Shown in pieces: positions 1-7,513 of a stretch of 7,513 nucleotides of DNA. Location: positions 1 to 7,513 of the IMG/VR virus record IMGVR_UViG_2698536348_000008. One strand, written 5' to 3'. The DNA comes from a virus. Taxonomy: Duplodnaviria > Heunggongvirae > Uroviricota > Caudoviricetes. The number at the start of each line of letters is the position of its first letter. Within the stretch, counting starts at the first letter, position 1. The notes beneath the pieces are model-generated. The model saw only the letters and a program-made list of their open reading frames with translations. It was not told the origin of the DNA and did no database searches. Made by a program: the position numbers and the translations under genes.

Positions 1-496
1 CCCCCGACGTCATAACGGAACAGGGGATACGCCGAATGTTGATACAAATACAGAGATTACTACAGAGATTACTACAGAGATTACAACGGAGACTAAAAAC
101 ACTATTGGCGCATCCGCTGACGCGTCTGCACCAGCGCGTTCTGCCAGACAGGAATATTCACCGGAATTTGAACAGGCCTGGCAGGAATATCCCAAACGTG
201 CTGGTGGTAATTCAAAATCCGCCGCTTTTAAAGCCTGGAAAGCCCGAATCAGGGAAGGTGTGACACCCGAAACCATGCTCGACGGTGTGAAACGCTATGC
301 CGCCTGGGTGCGTGTCTCTGGAAATACCGGTACCCAGTTCGTGAAGCAGGCGTCGACGTTCTTTGGTCCGGATCGTCATTTCGAAGAATCCTGGGAAGTT
401 CCTGCGGTATCTGCAGCCAGACGCGAGGACCCGTACTTCAAAGCCAGTTACGACAACGTGGACTACAGCCAGATCCCGGAAGGATTCAGGGGGTGA
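1..496 (+). CDS. Phage replication protein, C-terminal portion with DnaT-like C-terminus; 5' end lies upstream of the window
   Basis: The frame beginning at nt 2 is open from the window edge to TGA 494-496 (the ORF track shows only the 260-496 part). The C-terminal ...DYSQIPEGFRG resembles the C-terminal end of E. coli primosomal protein DnaT as I recall it (memory, not a search). Position directly upstream of dam/rusA/Q fits a lambdoid replication module. Confidence 0.6.
   Translation, partial: PRRHNGTGDTPNVDTNTEITTEITTEITTETKNTIGASADASAPARSARQEYSPEFEQAWQEYPKRAGGNSKSAAFKAWKARIREGVTPETMLDGVKRYAAWVRVSGNTGTQFVKQASTFFGPDRHFEESWEVPAVSAARREDPYFKASYDNVDYSQIPEGFRG
49..84 (+). repeat. 12-bp tandem repeat, 3 copies (tacagagattac) plus a degenerate 4th unit, in frame within the replication gene, encoding (TEIT)3
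   Basis: Direct reading: units at 49-60, 61-72 and 73-84 are identical; 85-94 (aacggagact) is a decayed copy. Translation in the gene frame gives NTEITTEITTEITTETK. Confidence 0.85.
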
Positions 497-498
497 TC

Positions 499-591
499 AT
501 GAGTCTTTTGAATGAAGTTCAGAAATTCATTGAAGCCCATCCGGGGTGTACTTCCGGAGACATTGCGGATGCTTTTTACGTGGGGGCTTAA
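499..591 (+). CDS. Possible small ORF (30 aa, MSLLNEVQKFIEAHPGCTSGDIADAFYVGA) between the replication gene and dam; hypothetical
   Basis: ATG 499-501 lies 2 nt after the upstream stop and is preceded by a G-rich stretch (caggggg). Its stop TAA 589-591 shares a base with the dam ATG at 591 (TAATG). Below the ORF-track length cutoff; no homology recognised. Confidence 0.25.
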   Translation: MSLLNEVQKFIEAHPGCTSGDIADAFYVGA

Positions 592-1244
592 TGAGTAATA
601 AATATTGCCAGGCGCTGGTAGAACTGCGGAACAAACCAGCCCATGAACTGAAGGAAGTGGGCGATCAGTGGCGCACGCCGGACAACATTTTCTGGGGAAT
701 TAACACCTTGTTTGGTCCGTTTGTTCTGGATCTGTTCACTGACGGTGATAACGCCAAATGTGCCGCGTATTACACGGCGGAAGACAACGCGCTGGCGCAT
801 GACTGGTCAGAACGTCTTGCGGAGCTTAAAGGTGCTGCCTTTGGTAATCCCCCATACAGCCGCGCCAGTCAGCATGAGGGGCAATACATCACCGGCATGC
901 GTTACATCATGAAACATGCCAGTGCCATGCGTGATAAGGGCGGGCGCTATGTTTTCCTGATCAAAGCGGCCACCAGCGAAGTGTGGTGGCCGGAAGATGC
1001 AGATCATATTGCTTTTATTCGCGGGCGTATTGGTTTTGAACTGCCAGCCTGGTTTATCCCGAAAGACGAAAAGCAGGTGCCAACAGGTGCTTTCTTCGCT
1101 GGTGCTATTGCTGTTTTCGACAAGACCTGGAAGGGAGCGGCAATCAGCTACATCGGGCGCGATGAACTTGAGGCATGTGGTGAGGCGTTTCTGGCGCAGG
1201 TTCGCCAGCAGGCGGAAAAACTGGTCAGGGAGATGGCGGCATGA
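591..1244 (+). CDS. Phage DNA N6-adenine methyltransferase (Dam-family phage MTase)
   Basis: Translation contains the catalytic motif FGNPPYS (NPPY/DPPY motif IV) and an N-terminal WRTPDNIF segment typical of phage Dam-type MTases. ATG at 591 gives MSNKYCQ...; the ORF-track start at 546 is a GTG with no RBS, so 591 is preferred. Stop overlaps the next gene's start (ATGA at 1241-1244). Confidence 0.8.
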   Translation: MSNKYCQALVELRNKPAHELKEVGDQWRTPDNIFWGINTLFGPFVLDLFTDGDNAKCAAYYTAEDNALAHDWSERLAELKGAAFGNPPYSRASQHEGQYITGMRYIMKHASAMRDKGGRYVFLIKAATSEVWWPEDADHIAFIRGRIGFELPAWFIPKDEKQVPTGAFFAGAIAVFDKTWKGAAISYIGRDELEACGEAFLAQVRQQAEKLVREMAA

Positions 1245-1567
1245 CGACATTAACTCAATGCCAGCAGCAGGTGCTGGATATGCTGATTTCTTATCAGAAA
1301 GAACGTGGCTTCCCGCCAACCAATCAGGAGGTGGCAACCATGCTGGGATACCGTTCGGTGAATGCAGCGGTGGAGCATCTTCGCGCACTGGAGAAAAAAG
1401 GTGTCATCACGATAAAGCGTGGCGTGGCCCGGGGTATCACTCTTCATACCGCGGTGAAGGACGACGACAGCGAGGCGGTCGGGATTATCCGCGCCCTGCT
1501 TGCCGGTGAGGCAAACGCCAGGCTGCGTGCAGCCCACTGGTTACATGAGAGGGGCCTGAAAGTATGA
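1241..1567 (+). CDS. LexA N-terminal DNA-binding-domain-like protein (winged HTH only, no S24 peptidase domain), 108 aa
   Basis: LTQCQQQVLDMLISYQKERGFPPTNQEVATMLGYRSVNAAVEHLRALEKKGVITIKRGVARGITL aligns by eye almost residue-for-residue with E. coli LexA residues ~4-68 ([65 protein letters not shown], recalled from memory). No Ala-Gly cleavage site or Ser/Lys peptidase domain follows. Coupled to neighbours by ATGA overlaps at both ends. Confidence 0.75.
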   Translation: MTTLTQCQQQVLDMLISYQKERGFPPTNQEVATMLGYRSVNAAVEHLRALEKKGVITIKRGVARGITLHTAVKDDDSEAVGIIRALLAGEANARLRAAHWLHERGLKV

Positions 1568-1959
1568 AGCTAATACTGCCTTTTCCGCCCAGCGTGAACA
1601 CGTACTGGCGACACCCCAACAAAGGGGCGTTTGCTGGTAAGAGCCTGATAAGCGCGGCGGGGCGAAAATTCCAGAGCGCGGCGTGTGCAGCAATAGTTGA
1701 GCAGTTACGTCGTCTGCCGAAACCAACGTCGGCACCTGCTTCAGTGGAGATCGTGTTGTTTCCTCCGGATAACCGGATCCGCGATCTGGACAACTATAAC
1801 AAGGCGCTGTTTGACGCCCTGACCCACGCGGGTGTGTGGGAAGACGACAGACAGGTGAAAAGAATGCTGGTGGAGTGGGGACCGGTTATCCCGGAGGGGA
1901 AGGTCGAGATCACTATCAGTAAGTACGAAAAAGCGAGTTGCAAATTAGCAACTCGGTAA
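1564..1959 (+). CDS. rusA: RusA-family crossover junction endodeoxyribonuclease (Holliday junction resolvase)
   Basis: LPFPPSVNTYWRH ... RDLDNYNKALFDALTHAGVWEDDRQV matches the RusA pattern (LPWPPSNNRYYRH ... [26 protein letters not shown] in E. coli RusA, from memory). RBS GAGAGGGG precedes the ATG; typical nin-region position. Confidence 0.85.
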   Translation: MKLILPFPPSVNTYWRHPNKGAFAGKSLISAAGRKFQSAACAAIVEQLRRLPKPTSAPASVEIVLFPPDNRIRDLDNYNKALFDALTHAGVWEDDRQVKRMLVEWGPVIPEGKVEITISKYEKASCKLATR

Positions 1960-2004
1960 CGGAATTGAGCAACACCCTAAATTTGGGTATTACCTCGTTA
2001 AAGA

Positions 2005-2024
2005 TACTGTATTTATGAACAGTG
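2005..2024. promoter_or_regulatory. SOS-box-like (LexA operator-like) site TACTGTATTTATGAACAGTG
   Basis: Perfect CTGT-N8-ACAG core (CTGT 2007-2010, ACAG 2019-2022) with an AT-rich spacer; 16 of 20 positions match the TACTGTATATATATACAGTA consensus by hand. Lies in the 162-bp intergenic region upstream of the KilA-N gene. Confidence 0.4.
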
Positions 2025-2029
2025 TATCC

Positions 2030-2058
2030 TTGATAACTATTAAAAATCGCAGTAAGTT
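2030..2058 (+). promoter_or_regulatory. Candidate sigma70 promoter for the KilA-N/DUF968/Q genes (-35 TTGATA, 17-bp spacer, -10 TAAGTT)
   Basis: Hexamers read by eye: TTGATA at 2030-2035 and TAAGTT at 2053-2058. Weak -10; unverified. Confidence 0.2.
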
Positions 2059-2121
2059 CATCCTGCATCAACGAAAAGGGAGTGCAGTCCCGCTCGTGGA
2101 TAAAAATTTGTGGAGAAACCA

Positions 2122-2937
2122 ATGAATCAGTTGCTTGTAATTGATGGCGTTTCTGTGCGCCAGTACTTCGAATCTAACTACTGTCTTAACGACCTTCAGA
2201 AAGCTGCTCTTCTTGCCGCTGGTGAGAATCGCTCCTCCCGTTCGCTGGAAGTTCACGAGTTTATGCGTCGTCCTGAAACGAAGGCTCTTGTGGAATTATT
2301 GGAAGAAGAAACTACGGGAGATTCCCGTAGTATTCCTGTCATCACCATTCAGGGGCGCAATGGTGGGACGTATGTCTGTAAAGAGCTGGTCTATGCATAT
2401 GCAATGTGGATCAGCCCGGCATTCAGCTTAAAAGTGATACGTACTTTTGATGCGCTTCATAATTCATCACCAGAAGAAACCACATCCGACAAAATTAAAT
2501 CCGGGGTCATTCTGCTTGAATCAGCAGCAAAGACTCTAAATCTGTCAAACTCCTCGAAACTTGGTGCATACCAGAAATTATCAAAGGTAGCTGGTCTTCC
2601 TGAACTTATGCCGATCTATGCCATTGATGCACCTGCTGATGCGCCAGATGGTTCAAGCCGCCCTACGCTGTCGCTGAGTGCACTGCTGAAGCAGTATGGT
2701 ATCCGCCTGACGGCTAATCAGGCATATCACCAGATGGCGAAGCTGGGGATCGTTGAACAACGCGAACGATACAGCCGTACCGCGATTAACAACATCAAAA
2801 AATTCTGGTCGCTGACAGCGAAAGGTTGCATGTTCGGCAAGAACATCACCAGTCCCGCAAATCCGCGCGAGACGCAGCCGCATTTCTTCGAATCCCGATT
2901 CCCTGAGCTGTTAAAGCTGCTCGATACCGTTCATTGA
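2122..2937 (+). CDS. KilA-N domain protein (Roi-like phage DNA-binding protein)
   Basis: N-terminal region (GRNGGTYVCKELVYAYAMWISPAFSLKV) resembles KilA-N domains of phage Roi-type proteins found between nin genes and Q (family-level memory). ATG 2122 has RBS GGAG at 2112-2115; the ORF-track start at 2110 is a GTG inside that RBS. Confidence 0.7.
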   Translation: MNQLLVIDGVSVRQYFESNYCLNDLQKAALLAAGENRSSRSLEVHEFMRRPETKALVELLEEETTGDSRSIPVITIQGRNGGTYVCKELVYAYAMWISPAFSLKVIRTFDALHNSSPEETTSDKIKSGVILLESAAKTLNLSNSSKLGAYQKLSKVAGLPELMPIYAIDAPADAPDGSSRPTLSLSALLKQYGIRLTANQAYHQMAKLGIVEQRERYSRTAINNIKKFWSLTAKGCMFGKNITSPANPRETQPHFFESRFPELLKLLDTVH

Positions 2938-2938
2938 G

Positions 2939-3934
2939 GTGACCGTGAGAGCACTACTGACCCCTGAAATTGCCCCGCGTATGGGGATCGTATTGTTCAG
3001 ACCCGGTTCAGAGCTGATGCCCCTGTTTATGCAGGGGCGTGTCCTGCTGGAGCCTGAGCCGGAACGTTATTCATCTTTTGCCAGTGGTGCCGTTCCGGCA
3101 GCATCACAACCGCTGGCGGATGATCCTGCCGTTCGGGCCGTGTTCCGCAATGAGGCAGTGATCCGTCGTGCTGGTGGCGTGGAATGTCTTGAAAGCTGGT
3201 TACTTCGTGAAAAAGGTTGCCAGTGGCCTCATTCCGACTGGCACAGCGAGAACATGACCACAATGCGACACGCGCCGGGCGCAATCCGTCTGTGCTGGCA
3301 CTGCGATAACCAGCTGCGCGATCAGTTCACGGAACGGCTGGAATCAATGGCAACGGATAACTGTGCCCGCTGGGTGTTGTCTGTTGTGCGTCGGGATCTC
3401 GGTTTTGATGACAGTCACGTTGTGACAATGCCGGAACTGTGCTGGTGGCTGGTTCGTAATGATCTGGCGGATGCCTTACCGGAAAGTGCAGCCCGTAAGG
3501 CACTGAGATTACCGAAGCCTGTTGTGCCGTCTGTCACCCGGGAGAGTGACCTTGTGCCTTCGGTTCCGGCCACCAGCATCATCCAGAATAAAGCGAAAAA
3601 GGTGCTGGCGCTGAAAGTGGATCCGGAGTCGCCGGAGTCTTTTATGTTACGCCCAAAACGTCGCCGCTGGGTTAACGAAAAGTACACGCGCTGGGTTAAG
3701 ACGCAGCCGTGTGCATGTTGTGGAAAGCCTGCTGATGATCCCCACCACCTGATAGGCCACGGTCAGGGGGGAATGGGTACAAAAGCGCATGACCTCTTCG
3801 TGCTGCCTTTGTGCAGAAAGCATCACGACGAGCTGCATGCGGATACCGTGGCATTTGAAGAGAAGTATGGCTCCCAGCTGGAGCTGATATTTCGTTTTAT
3901 CGATCGTGCGCTGGCAATAGGCGTGCTGGCCTGA
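2939..3934 (+). CDS. DUF968-like prophage protein with C-terminal HNH-like Cys/His cluster
   Basis: C-terminal RWVNEKYTRWVKTQPCACCGKPADDPHHLIGHGQGGMGTKAHDLFVLPLCRKHHDELH resembles the conserved core of DUF968 proteins in E. coli prophages (e.g. YdfU-like; memory). Start is uncertain: GTG 2939 sits 1 nt after the upstream stop, and the first ATG is at 2981 with no clear RBS. Confidence 0.6.
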   Translation: MTVRALLTPEIAPRMGIVLFRPGSELMPLFMQGRVLLEPEPERYSSFASGAVPAASQPLADDPAVRAVFRNEAVIRRAGGVECLESWLLREKGCQWPHSDWHSENMTTMRHAPGAIRLCWHCDNQLRDQFTERLESMATDNCARWVLSVVRRDLGFDDSHVVTMPELCWWLVRNDLADALPESAARKALRLPKPVVPSVTRESDLVPSVPATSIIQNKAKKVLALKVDPESPESFMLRPKRRRWVNEKYTRWVKTQPCACCGKPADDPHHLIGHGQGGMGTKAHDLFVLPLCRKHHDELHADTVAFEEKYGSQLELIFRFIDRALAIGVLA

Positions 3935-3951
3935 TTTTGTGGAGAAAGTTG

Positions 3952-4323
3952 ATGCGTGATATTCAAATGGTTCTTGAACGTTGGGGGGCATGGGTGGCAA
4001 ATAATCACGAGGATGTGGAATGGTCATCTGTTGCTGCAGGTTTTAAGGGATTAATTCCTTCGAAAGTAAAATCCCGCCCGCAATGTAGCGATGACGATGG
4101 CCTGATCATTAGCTCTGCGATGACAGTTCTTAAGAAAAAGGAACCGTATCAATACGAATTACTGGAAATGTATTATGTGTATGGGGTTACATTACGGGTG
4201 TTGGGGGTAAAACTGGGGATATCACTTAATCAGGTTGTTATCAGACTGCAGAAAGCTGAAGGGTTTATTGACGGTTGTCTGGCAATGTTGGGGGTATCTT
4301 TAGAAATTGATTGTTACATATAG
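3952..4323 (+). CDS. Antitermination protein Q (QuuD-like short Q)
   Basis: MRDIQMVLERWGAWVANNHEDVEWSSVAAGFKGLIPSKVKSRPQC... closely resembles the DLP12 prophage Q homologue QuuD as I recall it. ATG 3952 has RBS GGAG at 3941-3944; the ORF-track start at 3937 is TTG. Confidence 0.75.
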   Translation: MRDIQMVLERWGAWVANNHEDVEWSSVAAGFKGLIPSKVKSRPQCSDDDGLIISSAMTVLKKKEPYQYELLEMYYVYGVTLRVLGVKLGISLNQVVIRLQKAEGFIDGCLAMLGVSLEIDCYI

Positions 4324-4398
4324 TAATAAATTCAATCAAAGTAAATAATCATATTTTATTATAACCTCCTGATGATACCTGTTCATTGGGAGGTTATT
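4324..4398 (+). promoter_or_regulatory. Q-distal intergenic region: candidate late-promoter (pR'/qut-like) position plus a leader hairpin that pairs with the RBS of the next ORF
   Basis: In lambdoid phages pR'/qut lie directly after Q (established); here 75 AT-rich bp follow the Q stop. ATAACCTCC (4361-4369) is the exact reverse complement of GGAGGTTAT (4389-4397), which contains the RBS of the ORF starting at 4399. Promoter hexamers were not confidently placed. Confidence 0.3.
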
Positions 4399-4632
4399 AT
4401 GGATAAAAATGTAGAGCATGTATTAGTTGATGCAATTGAAAATAAGCAATCTTTAACAGTCGTTTACTTAGGAGGGAGCCAGCCCGGAACATTAAGGAAT
4501 ATTTCTCCGATTAGTATAAATGGGGATAAATTGCGGGCAAGATGCCATAGTTCTGGAGCAGTAAAGGTTTTCAATCTTGGGAAAATACAGTTACCCAGTG
4601 ACTCCTGCGCGGTATCTATGCACTATGGAGAT

Positions 4633-4636
4633 TTAG
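4633..4636. repeat. IS5 target-site duplication, left copy (TTAG)
   Basis: TTAG immediately outside the IS5 left terminus; an identical TTAG flanks the right terminus. IS5 makes 4-bp duplications at YTAR-type targets (established). Confidence 0.85.
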
Positions 4637-4652
4637 GGAAGGTGCGAACAAG
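4637..4652. repeat. IS5 left terminal inverted repeat
   Basis: GGAAGGTGCGAACAAG; its partner at 5816-5831 reverse-complements to GGAAGGTGCGAATAAG. Confidence 0.9.
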
Positions 4653-4659
4653 TTCCTGA

Positions 4660-5685
<1,026 letters not shown>

Positions 5686-5815
5686 AAACTGGGGATAACG
5701 CCTTAAATGGCGAAGAAACGGTCTAAATAGGCTGATTCAAGGCATTTACGGGAGAAAAAATCGGCTCAAACATGAAGAAATGAAATGACTGAGTCAGCCG
5801 AGAAGAATTTCCCCG

Positions 5816-5831
5816 CTTATTCGCACCTTCC
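5816..5831. repeat. IS5 right terminal inverted repeat
   Basis: CTTATTCGCACCTTCC, inverted complement of the left terminus with one mismatch. Confidence 0.9.
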
Positions 5832-5835
5832 TTAG
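5832..5835. repeat. IS5 target-site duplication, right copy (TTAG)
   Basis: TTAG immediately outside the IS5 right terminus, identical to 4633-4636. Confidence 0.85.
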
Positions 5836-6344
5836 AAGTTAAAGCTTATGAGACGATGCAGAGCGTAAATGACAACTTTCATGCCCTTTATCCTGAAGGA
5901 CGATGGGGTGTTGATTTTAATGAGCATCGCTTTGCTTTATTTGATTTTTTTAAAAACGGGAAACGAAAAAAAACGGCATTTATGGCAATTGAGTTCAGGG
6001 AAAGAGATGAAGAGAAAATAATAACAGGTGTAACAATTGATATTGGTATATCTGGAACAGTGATTTCTGAGAAGTCCCGAATCCCAAAAAGACGACCATG
6101 GGTAGTGGTTGGTCCCGAACACGGAGAATACAGTACTTATTCAACTTTGGACAAGGCTGCTACAGCGTTTTTTGAGAGGCTTTCGTTGATAGCATCCGGC
6201 CTGGAAGATAATTGATTTTATGTTTGGTATTCAGAGTTCGCCGTGCTTAAGAAAGTCAAGATTCTAAAAATACTGAATGAGCTACTTGTGTTATAACAAA
6301 AATGCTATTAGTGTGTTAAGAGTGGTTACTTCGCCACACAACTT

Positions 6345-6369
6345 AAACCCGCCACTGAGCGGGTTTTTT
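6345..6369 (+). terminator. Rho-independent terminator (8-bp stem AAACCCGC/GCGGGTTT, 6-nt loop, T6 tract)
   Basis: Stem 6345-6352 pairs with 6359-6366 and is followed by TTTTTT 6364-6369. Lies about 130 bp after the cargo ORF stop. Confidence 0.6.
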
Positions 6370-6491
6370 GTACCTGTAAACTTGGTGCAGTACAGTAAAC
6401 ACGCTGGTGGTCGTGAATACTGACTTTTTATCTTGCTGGCTTTTTAGACAAGAGTTATTGGTATGTCATGTTAACCAGAAGGGAAAAAGAC

Positions 6492-6689
6492 ATGCTAAAA
6501 CAGCAAGATATGACCGAAACCGCCAGAGTGGTGTTTAATGAATTGAGCGTCACCGAACCGGCGACAGTCGGGGAGATTGCGCAGAATACTTACCTTTCAC
6601 GCGAACGCTGCCAGTTAATACTGACCCAGCTGGTTATGGCGGGTCTGGCAGACTATCAGTTCGGTTGTTACAGACGCCTTCCGCAGTGA
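6492..6689 (+). CDS. Small hypothetical protein (~65 aa) with HTH-like segment
   Basis: The ORF track gives 6468-6689. I prefer ATG 6492 because it is preceded by AAGGGA at a suitable spacing, whereas 6468 has no RBS. TVGEIAQNTYLSRERCQLILTQLVMAGL resembles a helix-turn-helix (pattern only). Ends inside a terminator-like hairpin. Confidence 0.4.
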   Translation: MLKQQDMTETARVVFNELSVTEPATVGEIAQNTYLSRERCQLILTQLVMAGLADYQFGCYRRLPQ

Positions 6690-6699
6690 AGGCTTTTTT
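6676..6699 (+). terminator. Candidate rho-independent terminator (6-bp stem GCCTTC/GAAGGC, 6-nt loop, T6 tract)
   Basis: GCCTTC 6676-6681 pairs with GAAGGC 6688-6693, followed by TTTTTT 6694-6699. The stop codon of the small ORF lies in the loop/stem. Confidence 0.45.
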
Positions 6700-6716
6700 A
6701 TTTGTGGTAAATGGGC

Positions 6717-6747
6717 GGCTGGTGGGTGTTAGGGGCACCCACCAGCC
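6717..6747. repeat. Perfect 12-bp inverted repeat (GGCTGGTGGGTG / CACCCACCAGCC) with 7-nt spacer; each arm contains a Chi octamer
   Basis: Left arm 6717-6728, right arm 6736-6747, exact reverse complements. GCTGGTGG is at 6718-6725 (+ strand) and its complement CCACCAGC at 6739-6746. Confidence 0.6.
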
Positions 6748-6839
6748 ATCTGCTCATGCGTTGGGTTCACAAGCAAACCTCAGGCCCACTGCTTTGCGCA
6801 AAAGCAGAATGAGCCTATCAGAGACAGGCTTAATGATCC

Positions 6840-7513
6840 ATGCTTAATACTGTAAAAATATCCAGTTGTGAGTTAATCAACGCCGACTGCCTGGAATTTA
6901 TCCGGTCGTTACCCGAAAATTCTGTTGACCTGATAGTCACGGACCCGCCGTACTTTAAAGTGAAGCCTGAGGGCTGGGATAACCAGTGGAAGGGCGACGA
7001 TGATTACCTGAAGTGGCTGGACCAGTGTCTGGCGCAGTTCTGGCGGGTGCTGAAACCTGCCGGAAGTCTTTACCTGTTCTGTGGTCATCGCCTGGCATCT
7101 GATATCGAAATCATGATGCGTGAACGCTTCAGTGTGCTGAACCATATTATCTGGGCGAAGCCGTCCGGACGCTGGAACGGATGCAACAAGGAAAGCCTGC
7201 GGGCGTATTTCCCCGCCACAGAGCGCATTCTGTTCGCGGAACATTATCAGGGGCCGTATCGTCCGAAAGATGCCGGGTATGAGGCGAAGGGCAGGGCACT
7301 GAAACAGCATGTGATGGCCCCGCTGATTGCTTACTTTCGTGATGCGCGCGCTGCCCTGGGGATAACGGCAAAACAGATTGCAGATGCCACAGGAAAGAAA
7401 AACATGGTGCCGCACTGGTTCAGTGCCAGTCAGTGGCAGCTACCGAACGAAAGCGATTATCTGAAATTACAGTCGCTGTTTGCCCGGGTGGCAGAAGAGA
7501 AACATCAGCGCGG
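6840..7513 (+). CDS. DNA methyltransferase (N6-adenine/N4-cytosine type, DPPY motif), 5' portion; continues past the window end
   Basis: Not in the ORF track (no stop in window). From ATG 6840 I translated 224 codons without a stop: MLNTVKISSCELINADCLEFIRSLPENSVDLIVTDPPYFKVKPEGWDNQWKGDDDYLKWLDQCLAQFWRVLKPAGSLYLFCGH... The TDPPY motif near the N-terminus and overall pattern resemble YhdJ/phage-type MTases. The minus-strand ORF 6909-7415 overlaps it and is rejected. Confidence 0.8.
   Translation, partial: MLNTVKISSCELINADCLEFIRSLPENSVDLIVTDPPYFKVKPEGWDNQWKGDDDYLKWLDQCLAQFWRVLKPAGSLYLFCGHRLASDIEIMMRERFSVLNHIIWAKPSGRWNGCNKESLRAYFPATERILFAEHYQGPYRPKDAGYEAKGRALKQHVMAPLIAYFRDARAALGITAKQIADATGKKNMVPHWFSASQWQLPNESDYLKLQSLFARVAEEKHQR

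What the first reader, a model, noticed from the sequence alone, without database searches (positions are those of the whole stretch)
1..7513. Strong over-representation of Chi octamers (GCTGGTGG), absent from IS5 and the AT-rich cargo ORF
By hand I find GCTGGTGG on the + strand at 200, 1866, 3170, 3441, 6403 and 6718, and its complement CCACCAGC at 970, 3570 and 6739. That is 9 sites against roughly 0.2 expected for a random 8-mer on both strands of 7.5 kb, and several-fold denser than the E. coli average of about one per 4.5 kb. None falls in IS5 or the cargo ORF, consistent with their foreign origin. A high Chi density would attenuate RecBCD degradation of this DNA, which matters for a phage lacking or not expressing a RecBCD inhibitor.
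Basis: partly seen in the sequence, partly recalled or inferred. Interest (0 to 1): 0.55.

Follow-up and report, generated by a model that had tools for sequence, protein, structure and literature searches.

The report
Chi-rich arm of Rec-less lambdoid prophage
The nine Chi octamers are real and far more than chance allows, but they are the already published signature of lambda-like phages that carry no recombination genes or RecBCD inhibitor of their own and instead use Chi sites to turn the host RecBCD nuclease from a destroyer into a helper.

Summary
Observation confirmed. GCTGGTGG occurs at exactly the nine stated positions (6 on +, 3 on -). [quoted passage not shown] The excess survives dinucleotide shuffles (mean 0.30) and codon-preserving shuffles (6 coding sites against 1.26 expected, never reached in 20,000).

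The window is the origin-to-Q (nin) region, plus post-Q accessory genes, of a lambdoid prophage. A 99.9%-identical sister contig and the closest complete relatives (E. coli SCU-172 and S88 prophages, phages SfV and PhiR49_1) have yfdR/yfdQ/yfdP or RdgC early-left operons. None has Exo, Bet, Gam, RecET, Erf or Abc2. Their Chi sites lie between cI and cos, mostly on the top strand, with none in about 20 kb of structural genes.

This is the "no Rec module, high Chi" class of Bobay et al. 2013 and Zheng et al. 2025, so it is already known.

Caveats:
- Sites 6718 and 6739 are two arms of one palindrome.
- Three sites are in the inactive orientation.
- Absence from IS5 and the "cargo ORF" is statistically uninformative. 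That ORF is the 3' half of an IS5-split gene.

Modest addition: top-strand sites in RusA and DUF968 persist at synonymous positions across deep divergence; bottom-strand sites do not.

The parts
200..207 (+). Chi octamer, top-strand (active for RecBCD coming from the right). Lies in the O-like replication gene (codons R-A-G-G), about 110 bp right of the iteron-like repeats.
   Evidence: Intact in S88, SCU-172, Stx2a_1447, SfV and Lys8385Vzw.
970..977 (-). Chi octamer, bottom strand, in the Dam-like methyltransferase gene (codons A-T-S-E).
   Evidence: Kept in close relatives. Lost through synonymous changes in homologues at 72-73% amino-acid identity.
1866..1873 (+). Chi octamer, top strand, in rusA (codons M-L-V-E).
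   Evidence: Intact in 5 of 6 protein clusters defined at 90% identity, including Klebsiella phage homologues at 66-83% amino-acid identity. P(Chi | amino acids) is 0.205 per lineage.
3170..3177 (+). Chi octamer, top strand, in the DUF968 gene (codons A-G-G).
   Evidence: Intact in 6 of 8 protein clusters. P(Chi | amino acids) is 0.061.
3441..3448 (+). Chi octamer, top strand, in the DUF968 gene (codons C-W-W). Largely dictated by the protein motif.
   Evidence: Intact in 8 of 8 clusters, but P(Chi | CWW) is 0.70.
3570..3577 (-). Chi octamer, bottom strand, in the DUF968 gene (codons A-T-S-I).
   Evidence: Intact in only 3 of 8 clusters.
6403..6410 (+). Chi octamer, top strand, intergenic, 34 nt after a terminator-like hairpin (6348-6363 plus T6).
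   Evidence: Intact in S88, SCU-172 and SfV. Reads GCTGGCGG in Stx2a_1447.
6718..6725 (+). Chi octamer, top strand, intergenic, forming the left arm of the inverted repeat.
   Evidence: Intact in S88, SCU-172, Stx2a_1447 and SfV.
6739..6746 (-). Chi octamer, bottom strand, forming the right arm of the same inverted repeat. A by-product of the palindrome being perfect in this sequence.
   Evidence: Absent in every relative examined: TCACCAGC, CTGCCAGC or CTGTCAGT.
6717..6747 (.). Perfect 12-bp inverted repeat GGCTGGTGGGTG-N7-CACCCACCAGCC between the small gene and the methylase gene. Function unknown.
   Evidence: sequence; the 86-nt region folds at -38.5 kcal/mol, z = -3.5. Conserved imperfectly in relatives.
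2..496 (+). 3' part of the O-like replication-initiator gene (frame 2, open from the contig end). Contains the tandem repeat TACAGAGATTAC x3.7 at 49-92, which is iteron-like.
   Evidence: The homologous full gene is annotated as replication protein O or HTH in relatives.
591..1244 (+). Dam-like N6-adenine DNA methyltransferase.
   Evidence: Pfam PF05869, 5.4e-45.
1241..1567 (+). Protein with a LexA DNA-binding domain.
   Evidence: Pfam PF01726, 2.9e-19.
1564..1959 (+). RusA Holliday-junction resolvase.
   Evidence: Pfam PF05866, 1.3e-14.
2122..2937 (+). KilA-N domain protein.
   Evidence: Pfam PF04383.
2945..3934 (+). DUF968 / HNH-like protein (YdfU family). Carries three of the nine Chi sites.
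   Evidence: Pfam PF06147, 1.4e-81..
3952..4323 (+). Q antiterminator.
   Evidence: Pfam PF06530, 1.3e-47.
4399..4636 (+). 5' part of the WYL-like accessory gene, interrupted by IS5.
   Evidence: Rejoined with 5836-6215 it is 618 of 618 nt identical to the S88 gene.
4637..5831 (+). IS5 (1195 bp), inverted ends GGAAGGTGCGAA...TTCGCACCTTCC, target duplication TTAG. Holds no Chi.
   Evidence: Transposase Pfam DDE_Tnp_1 / DUF772.
5836..6215 (+).
6492..6689 (+). Small hypothetical gene (weak winged-helix-like hit), followed by a terminator-like hairpin at 6676-6693 plus T6.
6840..7513 (+). 5' part of an N6/N4 (type II-like) DNA methyltransferase gene, running off the contig end.
   Evidence: PF01555. 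(PADLOC MTase_II, 3.3e-106).

Best explanation
The window is the right-hand early region of a lambdoid prophage: the origin-bearing O-like gene, Dam, a LexA-like gene, RusA, KilA-N, DUF968, Q, then post-Q accessory genes. The prophage belongs to the class that carries no recombination (Rec) module and no RecBCD inhibitor.

In this class Chi octamers have been enriched by selection, mainly on the top strand and mainly between the replication origin and cos.

Inferred mechanism, taken from lambda red gam chi+ genetics and from Zheng et al. 2025:
1. During lytic growth a free double-strand end arises to the right of this region. It comes from terminase cutting at cos, or is the tail of a rolling circle.
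2. RecBCD enters there and travels leftward.
3. Within a few kb it meets top-strand 5'-GCTGGTGG-3' from its 3' side.
4. RecBCD then stops acting as a destructive nuclease and loads RecA.
5. The result is limited degradation plus RecA/RecBCD recombination, which produces the concatemers needed for packaging.
6. The phage's own RusA can resolve the resulting junctions.

The six + strand sites fit this orientation. Of the three - strand sites, one is a by-product of a palindrome. The other two are not conserved in diverged homologues.

What is shown: the excess itself, its strand and position pattern in relatives, the absence of Rec or inhibitor genes in relatives, and site conservation.

What is inferred: that RecBCD acts on these sites in this phage, and that this IS5-bearing prophage is still functional.
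For: - **The excess is real.**
- **Region identity.** Pfam and annotated relatives.
- **Same prophage in a sister assembly.** L006 is 99.9% identical, including the IS5 junction. It extends left to yfdR-RdgC-cI and adds 3 more Chi sites (2 on +, 1 on -).
- **No Rec module in relatives.** The early-left operons of SCU-172, S88, SfV and PhiR49_1, and of ten genomic contexts carrying the identical Dam protein, hold only yfdP/Q/R/S/T, RdgC, Ead/Ea22 and small unknown genes. There are no Gam, Abc2, Exo, Bet, RecT or Erf hits.
- **Chi maps of relatives.**
  - SCU-172 prophage: 18 Chi (14+/4-), all between int and cos, and 0 in 21.7 kb of structural genes despite their higher G+C.
  - S88: the same pattern.
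  - SfV: 22 Chi (17+/5-), 18 of them in the rightmost 10 kb.
  - 80 IMG/VR relatives: 820+/218-, 0.72 per kb.
  - Klebsiella clade: 626+/2-.
- **Site-level conservation.**
  - Top-strand sites in rusA and DUF968 persist where synonymous codon identity elsewhere is only 0.40-0.50.
  - Chance probabilities given the amino acids are 0.205 and 0.061 per lineage.
  - Bottom-strand sites are lost.
- **Literature.**
  - PMC3784561 reports that Rec- Inh- lambdoids over-represent Chi, concentrated between ori (gene O) and cos.
  - PMC12315714 reports that 62 of 68 Rec-module-less lambdoid phages have at least 8 top-strand Chi clustered at the right end.
  - It also reports that phage LLS grows better with RecBCD and has yfdR/yfdQ/yfdP homologues in its early-left operon.
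Against: - **Left arm not retrieved.** The left arm of this very prophage beyond yfdR could not be retrieved, so a Rec module or inhibitor there is not excluded.
- **Weak strand bias.** The strand bias within the window alone is not significant (6:3, p = 0.25).
- **Bottom-strand excess.** Bottom-strand coding sites also exceed codon shuffles (2 against 0.11 expected). The one-directional model does not explain this.
- **Possibly defective prophage.**
  - The prophage carries an IS5.
  - The S88 and SCU-172 relatives have a frameshifted large-terminase gene.
  - This copy may therefore be defective and its Chi sites relics.
- **Related sequences.** The relatives share ancestry, so counts across loci are not independent.
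- **No experiment.** There are no experimental data on this element.
Confidence: 0.8

Rival explanations
1. Compositional by-product. Chi contains the commonest Leu codon CTG plus GTG and is G-rich. A coding strand with positive GC skew and E. coli-like codon usage would then throw up many copies without selection on Chi itself.
For: All genes are on the + strand, with positive GC skew throughout. Two sites read L-V (CTG GTG) and one reads C-W-W, which gives Chi with probability 0.70. Keeping the proteins raises the expectation from 0.44 to 1.26.
Against: Six coding sites were never reached in 20,000 permutations of either kind. The 21.7-kb structural region of the closest relative has higher G+C, the same strand and the same host, yet zero Chi. 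Zheng et al. show near-identical codon usage in lambda (0 Chi) and LLS (23 Chi) (PMC12315714).
Confidence: 0.03
2. Host amelioration. A long-resident cryptic prophage accumulates Chi for the same reasons as the rest of the chromosome (repair of broken replication forks), not for any phage purpose.
For: Zheng et al. raise this caveat for IS-bearing prophages. This prophage carries IS5, and relatives have a frameshifted terminase gene.
Against: The density is 5.5-6.5 times the chromosomal one. The same sites occur in isolated or induced phages: SfV, PhiR49_1, Lys8385Vzw and Stx2a phages. Enrichment is confined to the cI-to-cos segment and absent from the structural genes of the same prophage. 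The sites predate the E. coli / Klebsiella phage split.
Confidence: 0.05
3. Inherited relic. The sites were selected in ancestral active phages but have no present function in this IS5-disrupted, possibly defective prophage. The count here reflects descent of one module, not nine events.
For: All sites except 6739 are shared with relatives at 91-98% identity. IS5 sits in the post-Q region. The frameshifted terminase genes in S88 and SCU-172 point the same way.
Against: This is compatible with, rather than opposed to, the best explanation for the origin of the excess. IS5 interrupts only an accessory gene, not an essential phage function. The viability of this prophage is unknown.
Confidence: 0.25
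4. Shielding from CRISPR adaptation. In E. coli, RecBCD degradation products feed Cas1-Cas2 and spacer acquisition stops at Chi. Dense Chi near the DNA end would reduce spacer capture from the phage. (The Levy et al. 2015 model is cited from my own knowledge. It is discussed in PMC5041463 and in bioRxiv 10.1101/2021.07.08.451572.)
For: The required feature is the same as for the best explanation: properly oriented Chi close to the entry end. The Discussion of PMC5041463 links Chi and its flanks to spacer pick-up.
Against: It does not explain why Chi abundance tracks the absence of a Rec module or RecBCD inhibitor. It also does not explain why LLS growth is enhanced by RecBCD. Nothing in the window bears on it.
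Confidence: 0.08

Closest known systems
[quoted passage not shown]
   Same: - Lambdoid gene order.
- An early-left operon with yfdR/yfdQ/yfdP-type genes and no Exo, Bet or Gam (in relatives and, as far as it is visible, in the sister contig).
- Chi as the most frequent octamer.
- Top-strand predominance.
- Clustering in the right part of the map.
   Different: Only a 7.5-kb fragment of a prophage is available. The local density (1 site per 0.7-0.8 kb) is higher than the LLS genome average (1 per 1.86 kb), because the window is the densest segment. Closest relatives have no Chi at all in the structural genes. RecBCD dependence was not tested. The prophage carries IS5.
[quoted passage not shown]
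   Same: Over-representation of Chi in elements that lack RecBCD inhibitors. Chi is concentrated between the replication genes (ori in O) and the terminase/cos, nearer the origin in Rec- phages. This is the segment the window covers.
   Different: That study reports genome-level observed/expected ratios (median 2.5). It does not report site-level conservation, or orientation relative to cos.
Shigella phage SfV (NC_003444) and E. coli prophages of S88 / SCU-172, phage PhiR49_1
   Same: Homologous module at 91-98% nucleotide identity, with 6 to 8 of the same Chi positions in each relative (up to 8 of the 9).
   Different: The window lacks the PerC/yfdN gene, has IS5 in the WYL-like gene, and has a perfected palindrome that creates the extra bottom-strand site 6739. 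S88 and SCU-172 diverge from the window after position 6726.
[quoted passage not shown]
   Same: Chi in the top-strand orientation lets a phage without a RecBCD inhibitor grow by RecBCD/RecA recombination. P1 has about 1 Chi per 1.9 kb and needs RecBCD (as summarised in PMC12315714).
   Different: In those cases Chi action is demonstrated experimentally. Here it is inferred from sequence.

Membership tests
Chi-rich lambdoid phages without a Rec module (LLS class / Rec- Inh- class) | Lambdoid genome organisation (cI/cro - replication - nin - Q - lysis - cos) | tested here: met
   The window holds O-like, Dam, LexA-like, RusA, KilA-N, DUF968 and Q. The sister contig adds cI(S24)-cro-CP76-Rha to the left. 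Relatives continue into lysis genes, cos and terminase.
Chi-rich lambdoid phages without a Rec module (LLS class / Rec- Inh- class) | No recombinase, exonuclease or RecBCD inhibitor (Gam/Abc2) in the early-left operon of this prophage itself | tested here: inconclusive
   Only yfdR (N-terminus) and RdgC are visible left of cI in sister contig L006. The remaining 16 kb of that contig could not be fetched.
Chi-rich lambdoid phages without a Rec module (LLS class / Rec- Inh- class) | No Rec module or inhibitor in the closest complete relatives | tested here: met
   Annotation of S88, SfV, PhiR49_1 and SCU-172. PHROG and Pfam scans of all SCU-172 early-left ORFs gave only RdgC and the YfdR phosphatase as identifiable functions. 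Ten contexts of the identical Dam protein have no Gam, Abc2, RecT, Erf or YqaJ Pfam hits.
Chi-rich lambdoid phages without a Rec module (LLS class / Rec- Inh- class) | Abundant Chi (eight or more on the top strand per genome) | tested here: met
   Six top-strand sites in the window, plus two more in the 5.6 kb to its left on the sister contig, give 8 in about 12 kb.
Chi-rich lambdoid phages without a Rec module (LLS class / Rec- Inh- class) | Predominance of the orientation active for RecBCD entering from the right (cos) end | tested here: inconclusive
   The window is 6:3 (p = 0.25). With the sister contig it is 8:4. It is clear in relatives: 14:4, 17:5, 12:4 and 10:0, 820:218 and 626:2. The cos end of this prophage was not seen directly.
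Chi-rich lambdoid phages without a Rec module (LLS class / Rec- Inh- class) | Clustering of Chi toward the right end / between ori and cos | tested here: met
   The window is that segment. In SCU-172 the densities are 1.24/kb from cI to Q, 0.52/kb from Q to cos, and 0 in 21.7 kb of structural genes. In SfV, 18 of 22 sites are in the last 10 kb.
Chi-rich lambdoid phages without a Rec module (LLS class / Rec- Inh- class) | Growth enhanced by host RecBCD | not testable with these tools
   Needs plating or burst assays on recB, recC, recD and recA hosts.
Chi recombination hotspot (E. coli-type) | Exact octamer 5'-GCTGGTGG-3' | tested here: met
Chi recombination hotspot (E. coli-type) | Host whose RecBCD recognises this octamer (enteric bacteria) | tested here: met
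   The module is found at 91-98% identity in 3804 of 5426 complete E. coli genomes and in Shigella, E. coli and Stx phages. The organism name of the source assembly GCA_001285245.1 was not returned by the tools.
Chi recombination hotspot (E. coli-type) | RecBCD nicking and hotspot activity, including the influence of the 3' flank (PMC5041463) | not tested
   Flank rules are only partly defined in the paper.

The most novel reading that the evidence does not exclude
Individual top-strand Chi octamers are embedded in coding sequence at fixed positions: rusA M-L-V-E at 1866 and DUF968 A-G-G at 3170. They may be held by orientation-specific purifying selection on synonymous positions across E. coli and Klebsiella phage lineages that share only 66-83% amino-acid identity. 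Bottom-strand sites decay. This would mean that some phage Chi sites are ancient and hard-wired, rather than coming and going with module shuffling as Zheng et al. suggest. It would also give a direct evolutionary read-out of which Chi sites matter.
Probability: 0.35. Interest if true: 0.4.

Novelty: already known. Interest (0 to 1): 0.2.

Why it matters
The window is a clean, very dense local example of a published rule: lambdoid phages that do not bring their own recombination system or RecBCD inhibitor load the origin-to-cos part of their genome with correctly oriented Chi sites and rely on host RecBCD/RecA.

For annotation, a Chi density of about 1 per kb in a nin/Q region is a useful predictor that the prophage lacks Gam and Red.

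It adds no new principle. The only modestly new angle is the deep, strand-specific conservation of particular Chi positions inside rusA and DUF968. This could be used to test for selection on Chi directly.

Tried and rejected
1. **Mosaic junctions at Chi.** Homology with the S88 and SCU-172 prophages ends at 6726, one base after Chi 6718. This suggested Chi-initiated recombination at module borders. A survey of 31 distinct homology breakpoints against about 170 related loci found only that one within 10 bp of a Chi, against 1.2 expected (P = 0.71). Most breakpoints sit at gene boundaries. Rejected.

2. **Finding the source genome by the IS5 junction.** Zero hits in genome contigs, and no complete E. 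coli genome has the junction. The exact-protein look-up then showed that the window is a whole 7.5-kb contig, and gave a sister contig.

3. **Fetching the rest of the sister contig.**
   - A homology search returned only representatives at 90% identity or less.
   - A look-up of the identical Dam protein returned ten other contexts but not that contig.

4. **Wrong frames in early analyses.**
   - The first codon-shuffle run used a wrong frame for the second methylase gene. It was redone with almost the same result.
   - first assigned Chi 200 to a spurious ORF (36-263). Searches show it lies in the O-like frame as R-A-G-G.

5. **The palindrome as a terminator.** It is not followed by a T-run on either strand and is not listed by the terminator scan. 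Its function is left open.

6. **WYL-like gene as a defence gene.** Only sub-threshold WYL hits were found. Not pursued.

7. **Supplementary table of Zheng et al.** I wanted to check whether SfV is listed, but the table is not held.

Full report
**1. The observation**

An exact search finds GCTGGTGG on the + strand at 200, 1866, 3170, 3441, 6403 and 6718, and on the - strand at 970, 3570 and 6739.

- Dinucleotide-preserving shuffles give a mean of 0.30 sites and never more than 2.
[quoted passage not shown] It has 9 copies and the next best has 5. Two of the runners-up overlap Chi by seven bases.
- Against the E. coli density quoted by Zheng et al. (1008 per 4.6 Mb), the window holds 5.5 times the expected number (Poisson P = 5.6e-5). 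Without IS5 it holds 6.5 times.
Six sites fall in 4920 bp of coding sequence.
  - Permuting synonymous codons while keeping every protein gives a mean of 1.26 and a maximum of 5 in 20,000 trials.
  - Permuting codon order gives a mean of 0.44 and a maximum of 4.
- The excess is therefore real and not a codon-usage effect.

Two qualifications apply:
- Sites 6718(+) and 6739(-) are the two arms of one perfect inverted repeat, GGCTGGTGGGTG-N7-CACCCACCAGCC (6717-6747). They are one event, not two.
- All sites except 6739 are shared with relatives that are 91-98% identical. The nine sites were inherited as a block.

**2. What the DNA is**

The window is an entire 7513-bp contig: CYDI01000089.1 of assembly GCA_001285245.1. 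Its genes are listed below.

| Coordinates | Feature | Evidence |
|---|---|---|
| 2-496 | 3' part of an O-like replication gene, with an iteron-like 12-bp tandem repeat at 49-92 | |
| 591-1244 | Dam-like methyltransferase | |
| 1241-1567 | LexA-DNA-binding-domain protein | |
| 1564-1959 | RusA | |
| 2122-2937 | KilA-N protein | |
| 2945-3934 | DUF968/HNH-like protein | |
| 3952-4323 | Q antiterminator | |
| 4399-4636 + 5836-6215 | WYL-like accessory gene, split by IS5 | |
| 4637-5831 | IS5, with TTAG target duplication | |
| 6492-6689 | Small gene | |
| 6840 onward | Start of a type II-like N6/N4 methyltransferase gene | |

With IS5 and one TTAG copy removed, the WYL-like gene is 618 of 618 nt identical to the intact gene of the E. 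coli S88 prophage.

This is the origin-to-Q ("nin") region, plus the post-Q accessory region, of a lambdoid prophage. The module is very common: it matches in 3804 of 5426 complete E. coli genomes, and in SfV, Stx-converting phages, PhiR49_1 and others.

**3. Context: recombination genes and whole-genome Chi maps**

A contig from a sister assembly (L006) is 99.9% identical over window 1-4719, including the IS5 junction. It extends 5.6 kb to the left, in this order: YfdR (N-terminus), RdgC, the cI-like S24 repressor, cro-like, CP76, DUF4222, Rha/ASH, then the full O-like gene. It carries three further Chi sites, two on + and one on -. I could not fetch the rest of that contig.

The closest complete relatives carry early-left operons made only of yfdP/Q/R/S/T-type genes, RdgC, Ead/Ea22 and small unknown genes. 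These relatives are:
- the E. coli SCU-172 and S88 prophages;
- phages SfV and PhiR49_1;
- ten further genomic contexts that encode the identical Dam protein.

No Exo, Bet, Gam, RecE/T, Erf, Sak or Abc2 appears, either by annotation or by PHROG and Pfam scans.

Their Chi maps are striking.

| Element | Chi sites (+/-) | Distribution |
|---|---|---|
| SCU-172 prophage | 18 (14/4) | all between int and cos; 1.24/kb from cI to Q; none in 21.7 kb of structural genes despite their higher G+C |
| S88 prophage | 18 (13/5) | same pattern as SCU-172 |
| SfV | 22 (17/5) | 18 in the rightmost 10 kb |
| PhiR49_1 | 8 (6/2) | all between int and Q |
| Lys8385Vzw | 16 (12/4) | - |
| Klebsiella relative (ST147-VIM1phi7.2) | 10 (10/0) | - |
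| 80 IMG/VR contigs with a near-identical DUF968 gene | 1038 (820/218) | 0.72/kb |
| 61 Klebsiella-clade contigs | 628 (626/2) | - |

**4. Site-level conservation**

I collected diverged homologues from IMG/VR. I then asked whether each window Chi site is intact in protein clusters that differ by more than 10% in amino-acid sequence.

| Site | Strand | Gene and codons | Intact in clusters | Note |
|---|---|---|---|---|
| 1866 | + | rusA, M-L-V-E | 5 of 6 | - |
| 3170 | + | DUF968, A-G-G | 6 of 8 | - |
| 3441 | + | DUF968, C-W-W | 8 of 8 | largely protein-determined |
| 3570 | - | DUF968, A-T-S-I | 3 of 8 | - |
| 970 | - | Dam, A-T-S-E | 1 of 3 | amino acids unchanged in all three clusters |

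In the same genes, only 40-50% of degenerate codons at amino-acid-identical positions are unchanged.

Given the amino acids and the codon usage of these homologues, the chance of Chi is 0.205 for M-L-V-E, 0.061 for A-G-G and 0.70 for C-W-W. The first two sites are therefore kept more than expected; the third is largely dictated by the protein. The clusters share ancestry, so this is suggestive rather than a formal test. It does fit selection on the orientation that acts on RecBCD arriving from the right.

**5. Mechanism**

In the standard lambda map, + in this window is the top strand, because genes O to Q run left to right toward the lysis genes and cos.

Zheng et al. state that top-strand 5'-GCTGGTGG-3' is the orientation that activates RecBCD entering from the right end. 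The inferred sequence of events is as follows:
1. A free right-hand double-strand end arises, either from a cos cut or as a rolling-circle tail.
2. RecBCD enters at that end.
3. RecBCD soon meets correctly oriented Chi in the lysis, Q and nin region.
4. RecBCD switches to loading RecA.
5. The phage DNA is spared and is recombined into packageable concatemers.
6. RusA, encoded in the same module, can resolve the junctions.

None of this is shown for this element. It rests on lambda red gam chi+ genetics and on LLS growth data, as summarised in PMC12315714 and PMC3784561.

Some points are not explained by this model:
- The two bottom-strand coding sites also exceed codon shuffles (2 against 0.11 expected).
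- The palindrome at 6717-6747 has no assigned function. It folds strongly but lacks a T-run.

**6. Comparison with what is known**

Bobay et al. 2013 report three points:
- Lambdoid elements without RecBCD inhibitors over-represent Chi, with a median observed/expected ratio of 2.5.
- Rec- elements do so most strongly.
- The sites are concentrated between the replication genes (ori in O) and cos, and nearer the origin in Rec- phages.

Zheng et al. 2025 report the following:
- They describe phage LLS and 62 further Rec-module-less lambdoid phages, each with at least 8 top-strand Chi clustered at the right end.
- LLS grows better with RecBCD.
- Codon usage does not explain the pattern.
- LLS has yfdR/yfdQ/yfdP homologues in its early-left operon.

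The window is the densest segment of a member of this class. The phenomenon is therefore already known.

**7. What is not supported**

The remark that absence from IS5 and the cargo ORF is "consistent with foreign origin" has no statistical weight. The 1813 bp concerned would hold 0.40 sites at host density (P of zero = 0.67) and 2.9 at the local density (P of zero = 0.057). Several core phage genes also lack Chi.

I also tested whether mosaic junctions coincide with Chi, because homology to S88 stops one base after Chi 6718. Only that one of 31 distinct breakpoints lies within 10 bp of a Chi, against 1.2 expected.

**8. Verdict**

The feature is real but already explained by published work. 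Interest is low (0.2).

The most novel reading still open is deep, orientation-specific purifying selection on particular coding Chi positions. I put its probability at about 0.35, and it would be of moderate interest if true.

Noticed in passing
window 4399-6215: IS5 (4637-5831, TTAG target duplication) splits a 205-codon WYL-like accessory gene downstream of Q. With IS5 removed, the ORF is 100% identical to the intact gene in the E. coli S88 prophage. WYL hits are sub-threshold in Pfam and PADLOC, so its function is unknown.
   Followed up: yes
window 49-92: 12-bp tandem repeat TACAGAGATTAC x3.7 inside the O-like replication gene, encoding TEIT repeats. It is iteron-like and a candidate replication origin. 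The left contig end lies just before it, and Chi 200 is about 110 bp to its right.
   Followed up: partly
window 6717-6747: Perfect 12-bp inverted repeat (14 bp with G-U pairs as RNA) carrying Chi in both arms, between the small gene and the methylase gene. It is conserved imperfectly in SfV, Stx2a_1447 and S88. There is no T-run after it on either strand. Function unknown.
   Followed up: partly
window 6348-6369 and 6676-6699: Two intrinsic-terminator-like hairpins with T6 runs. One follows the WYL-like gene (Chi 6403 lies 34 nt downstream of it). The other overlaps the stop codon of the small gene at 6492-6689.
   Followed up: no
window 497-591: The PerC/yfdN gene, which sits between the O-like gene and Dam in most relatives, is absent here. 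A 30-codon ORF (499-591) occupies the gap. Locus L170 shows the same arrangement.
   Followed up: partly
window 591-1244 and 6840-7513: Two different DNA methyltransferase genes in 7.5 kb: a Dam-like PF05869 gene and an N6_N4 type II-like gene. Presumably these are anti-restriction functions of the phage.
   Followed up: no
L006 226-1143 (sister contig, left of the window): An RdgC homologue lies immediately left of the cI-like repressor, replacing yfdQ/yfdP of other relatives. RdgC is described as a modulator of RecA. That is curious in a phage thought to depend on RecBCD/RecA.
   Followed up: partly
L091-L151 (Klebsiella-clade IMG/VR contigs around DUF968 homologues): Extreme Chi strand bias: 626 on the gene strand against 2 on the other in 1.09 Mb. 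This is far stronger than in the E. coli clade (820:218). The loci are related, so the counts are not independent.
   Followed up: partly
window 970-977 and 3570-3577: Bottom-strand (supposedly inactive) coding Chi sites also exceed codon-preserving shuffles (2 against 0.11 expected, P = 0.003). Yet they are not conserved in diverged homologues. This is unexplained.
   Followed up: partly
L003 32214-34140 and L008 28791-30708: The large-terminase genes of the S88 and SCU-172 prophages are annotated as frameshifted. These close relatives may be defective, even though their Chi pattern is intact.
   Followed up: no
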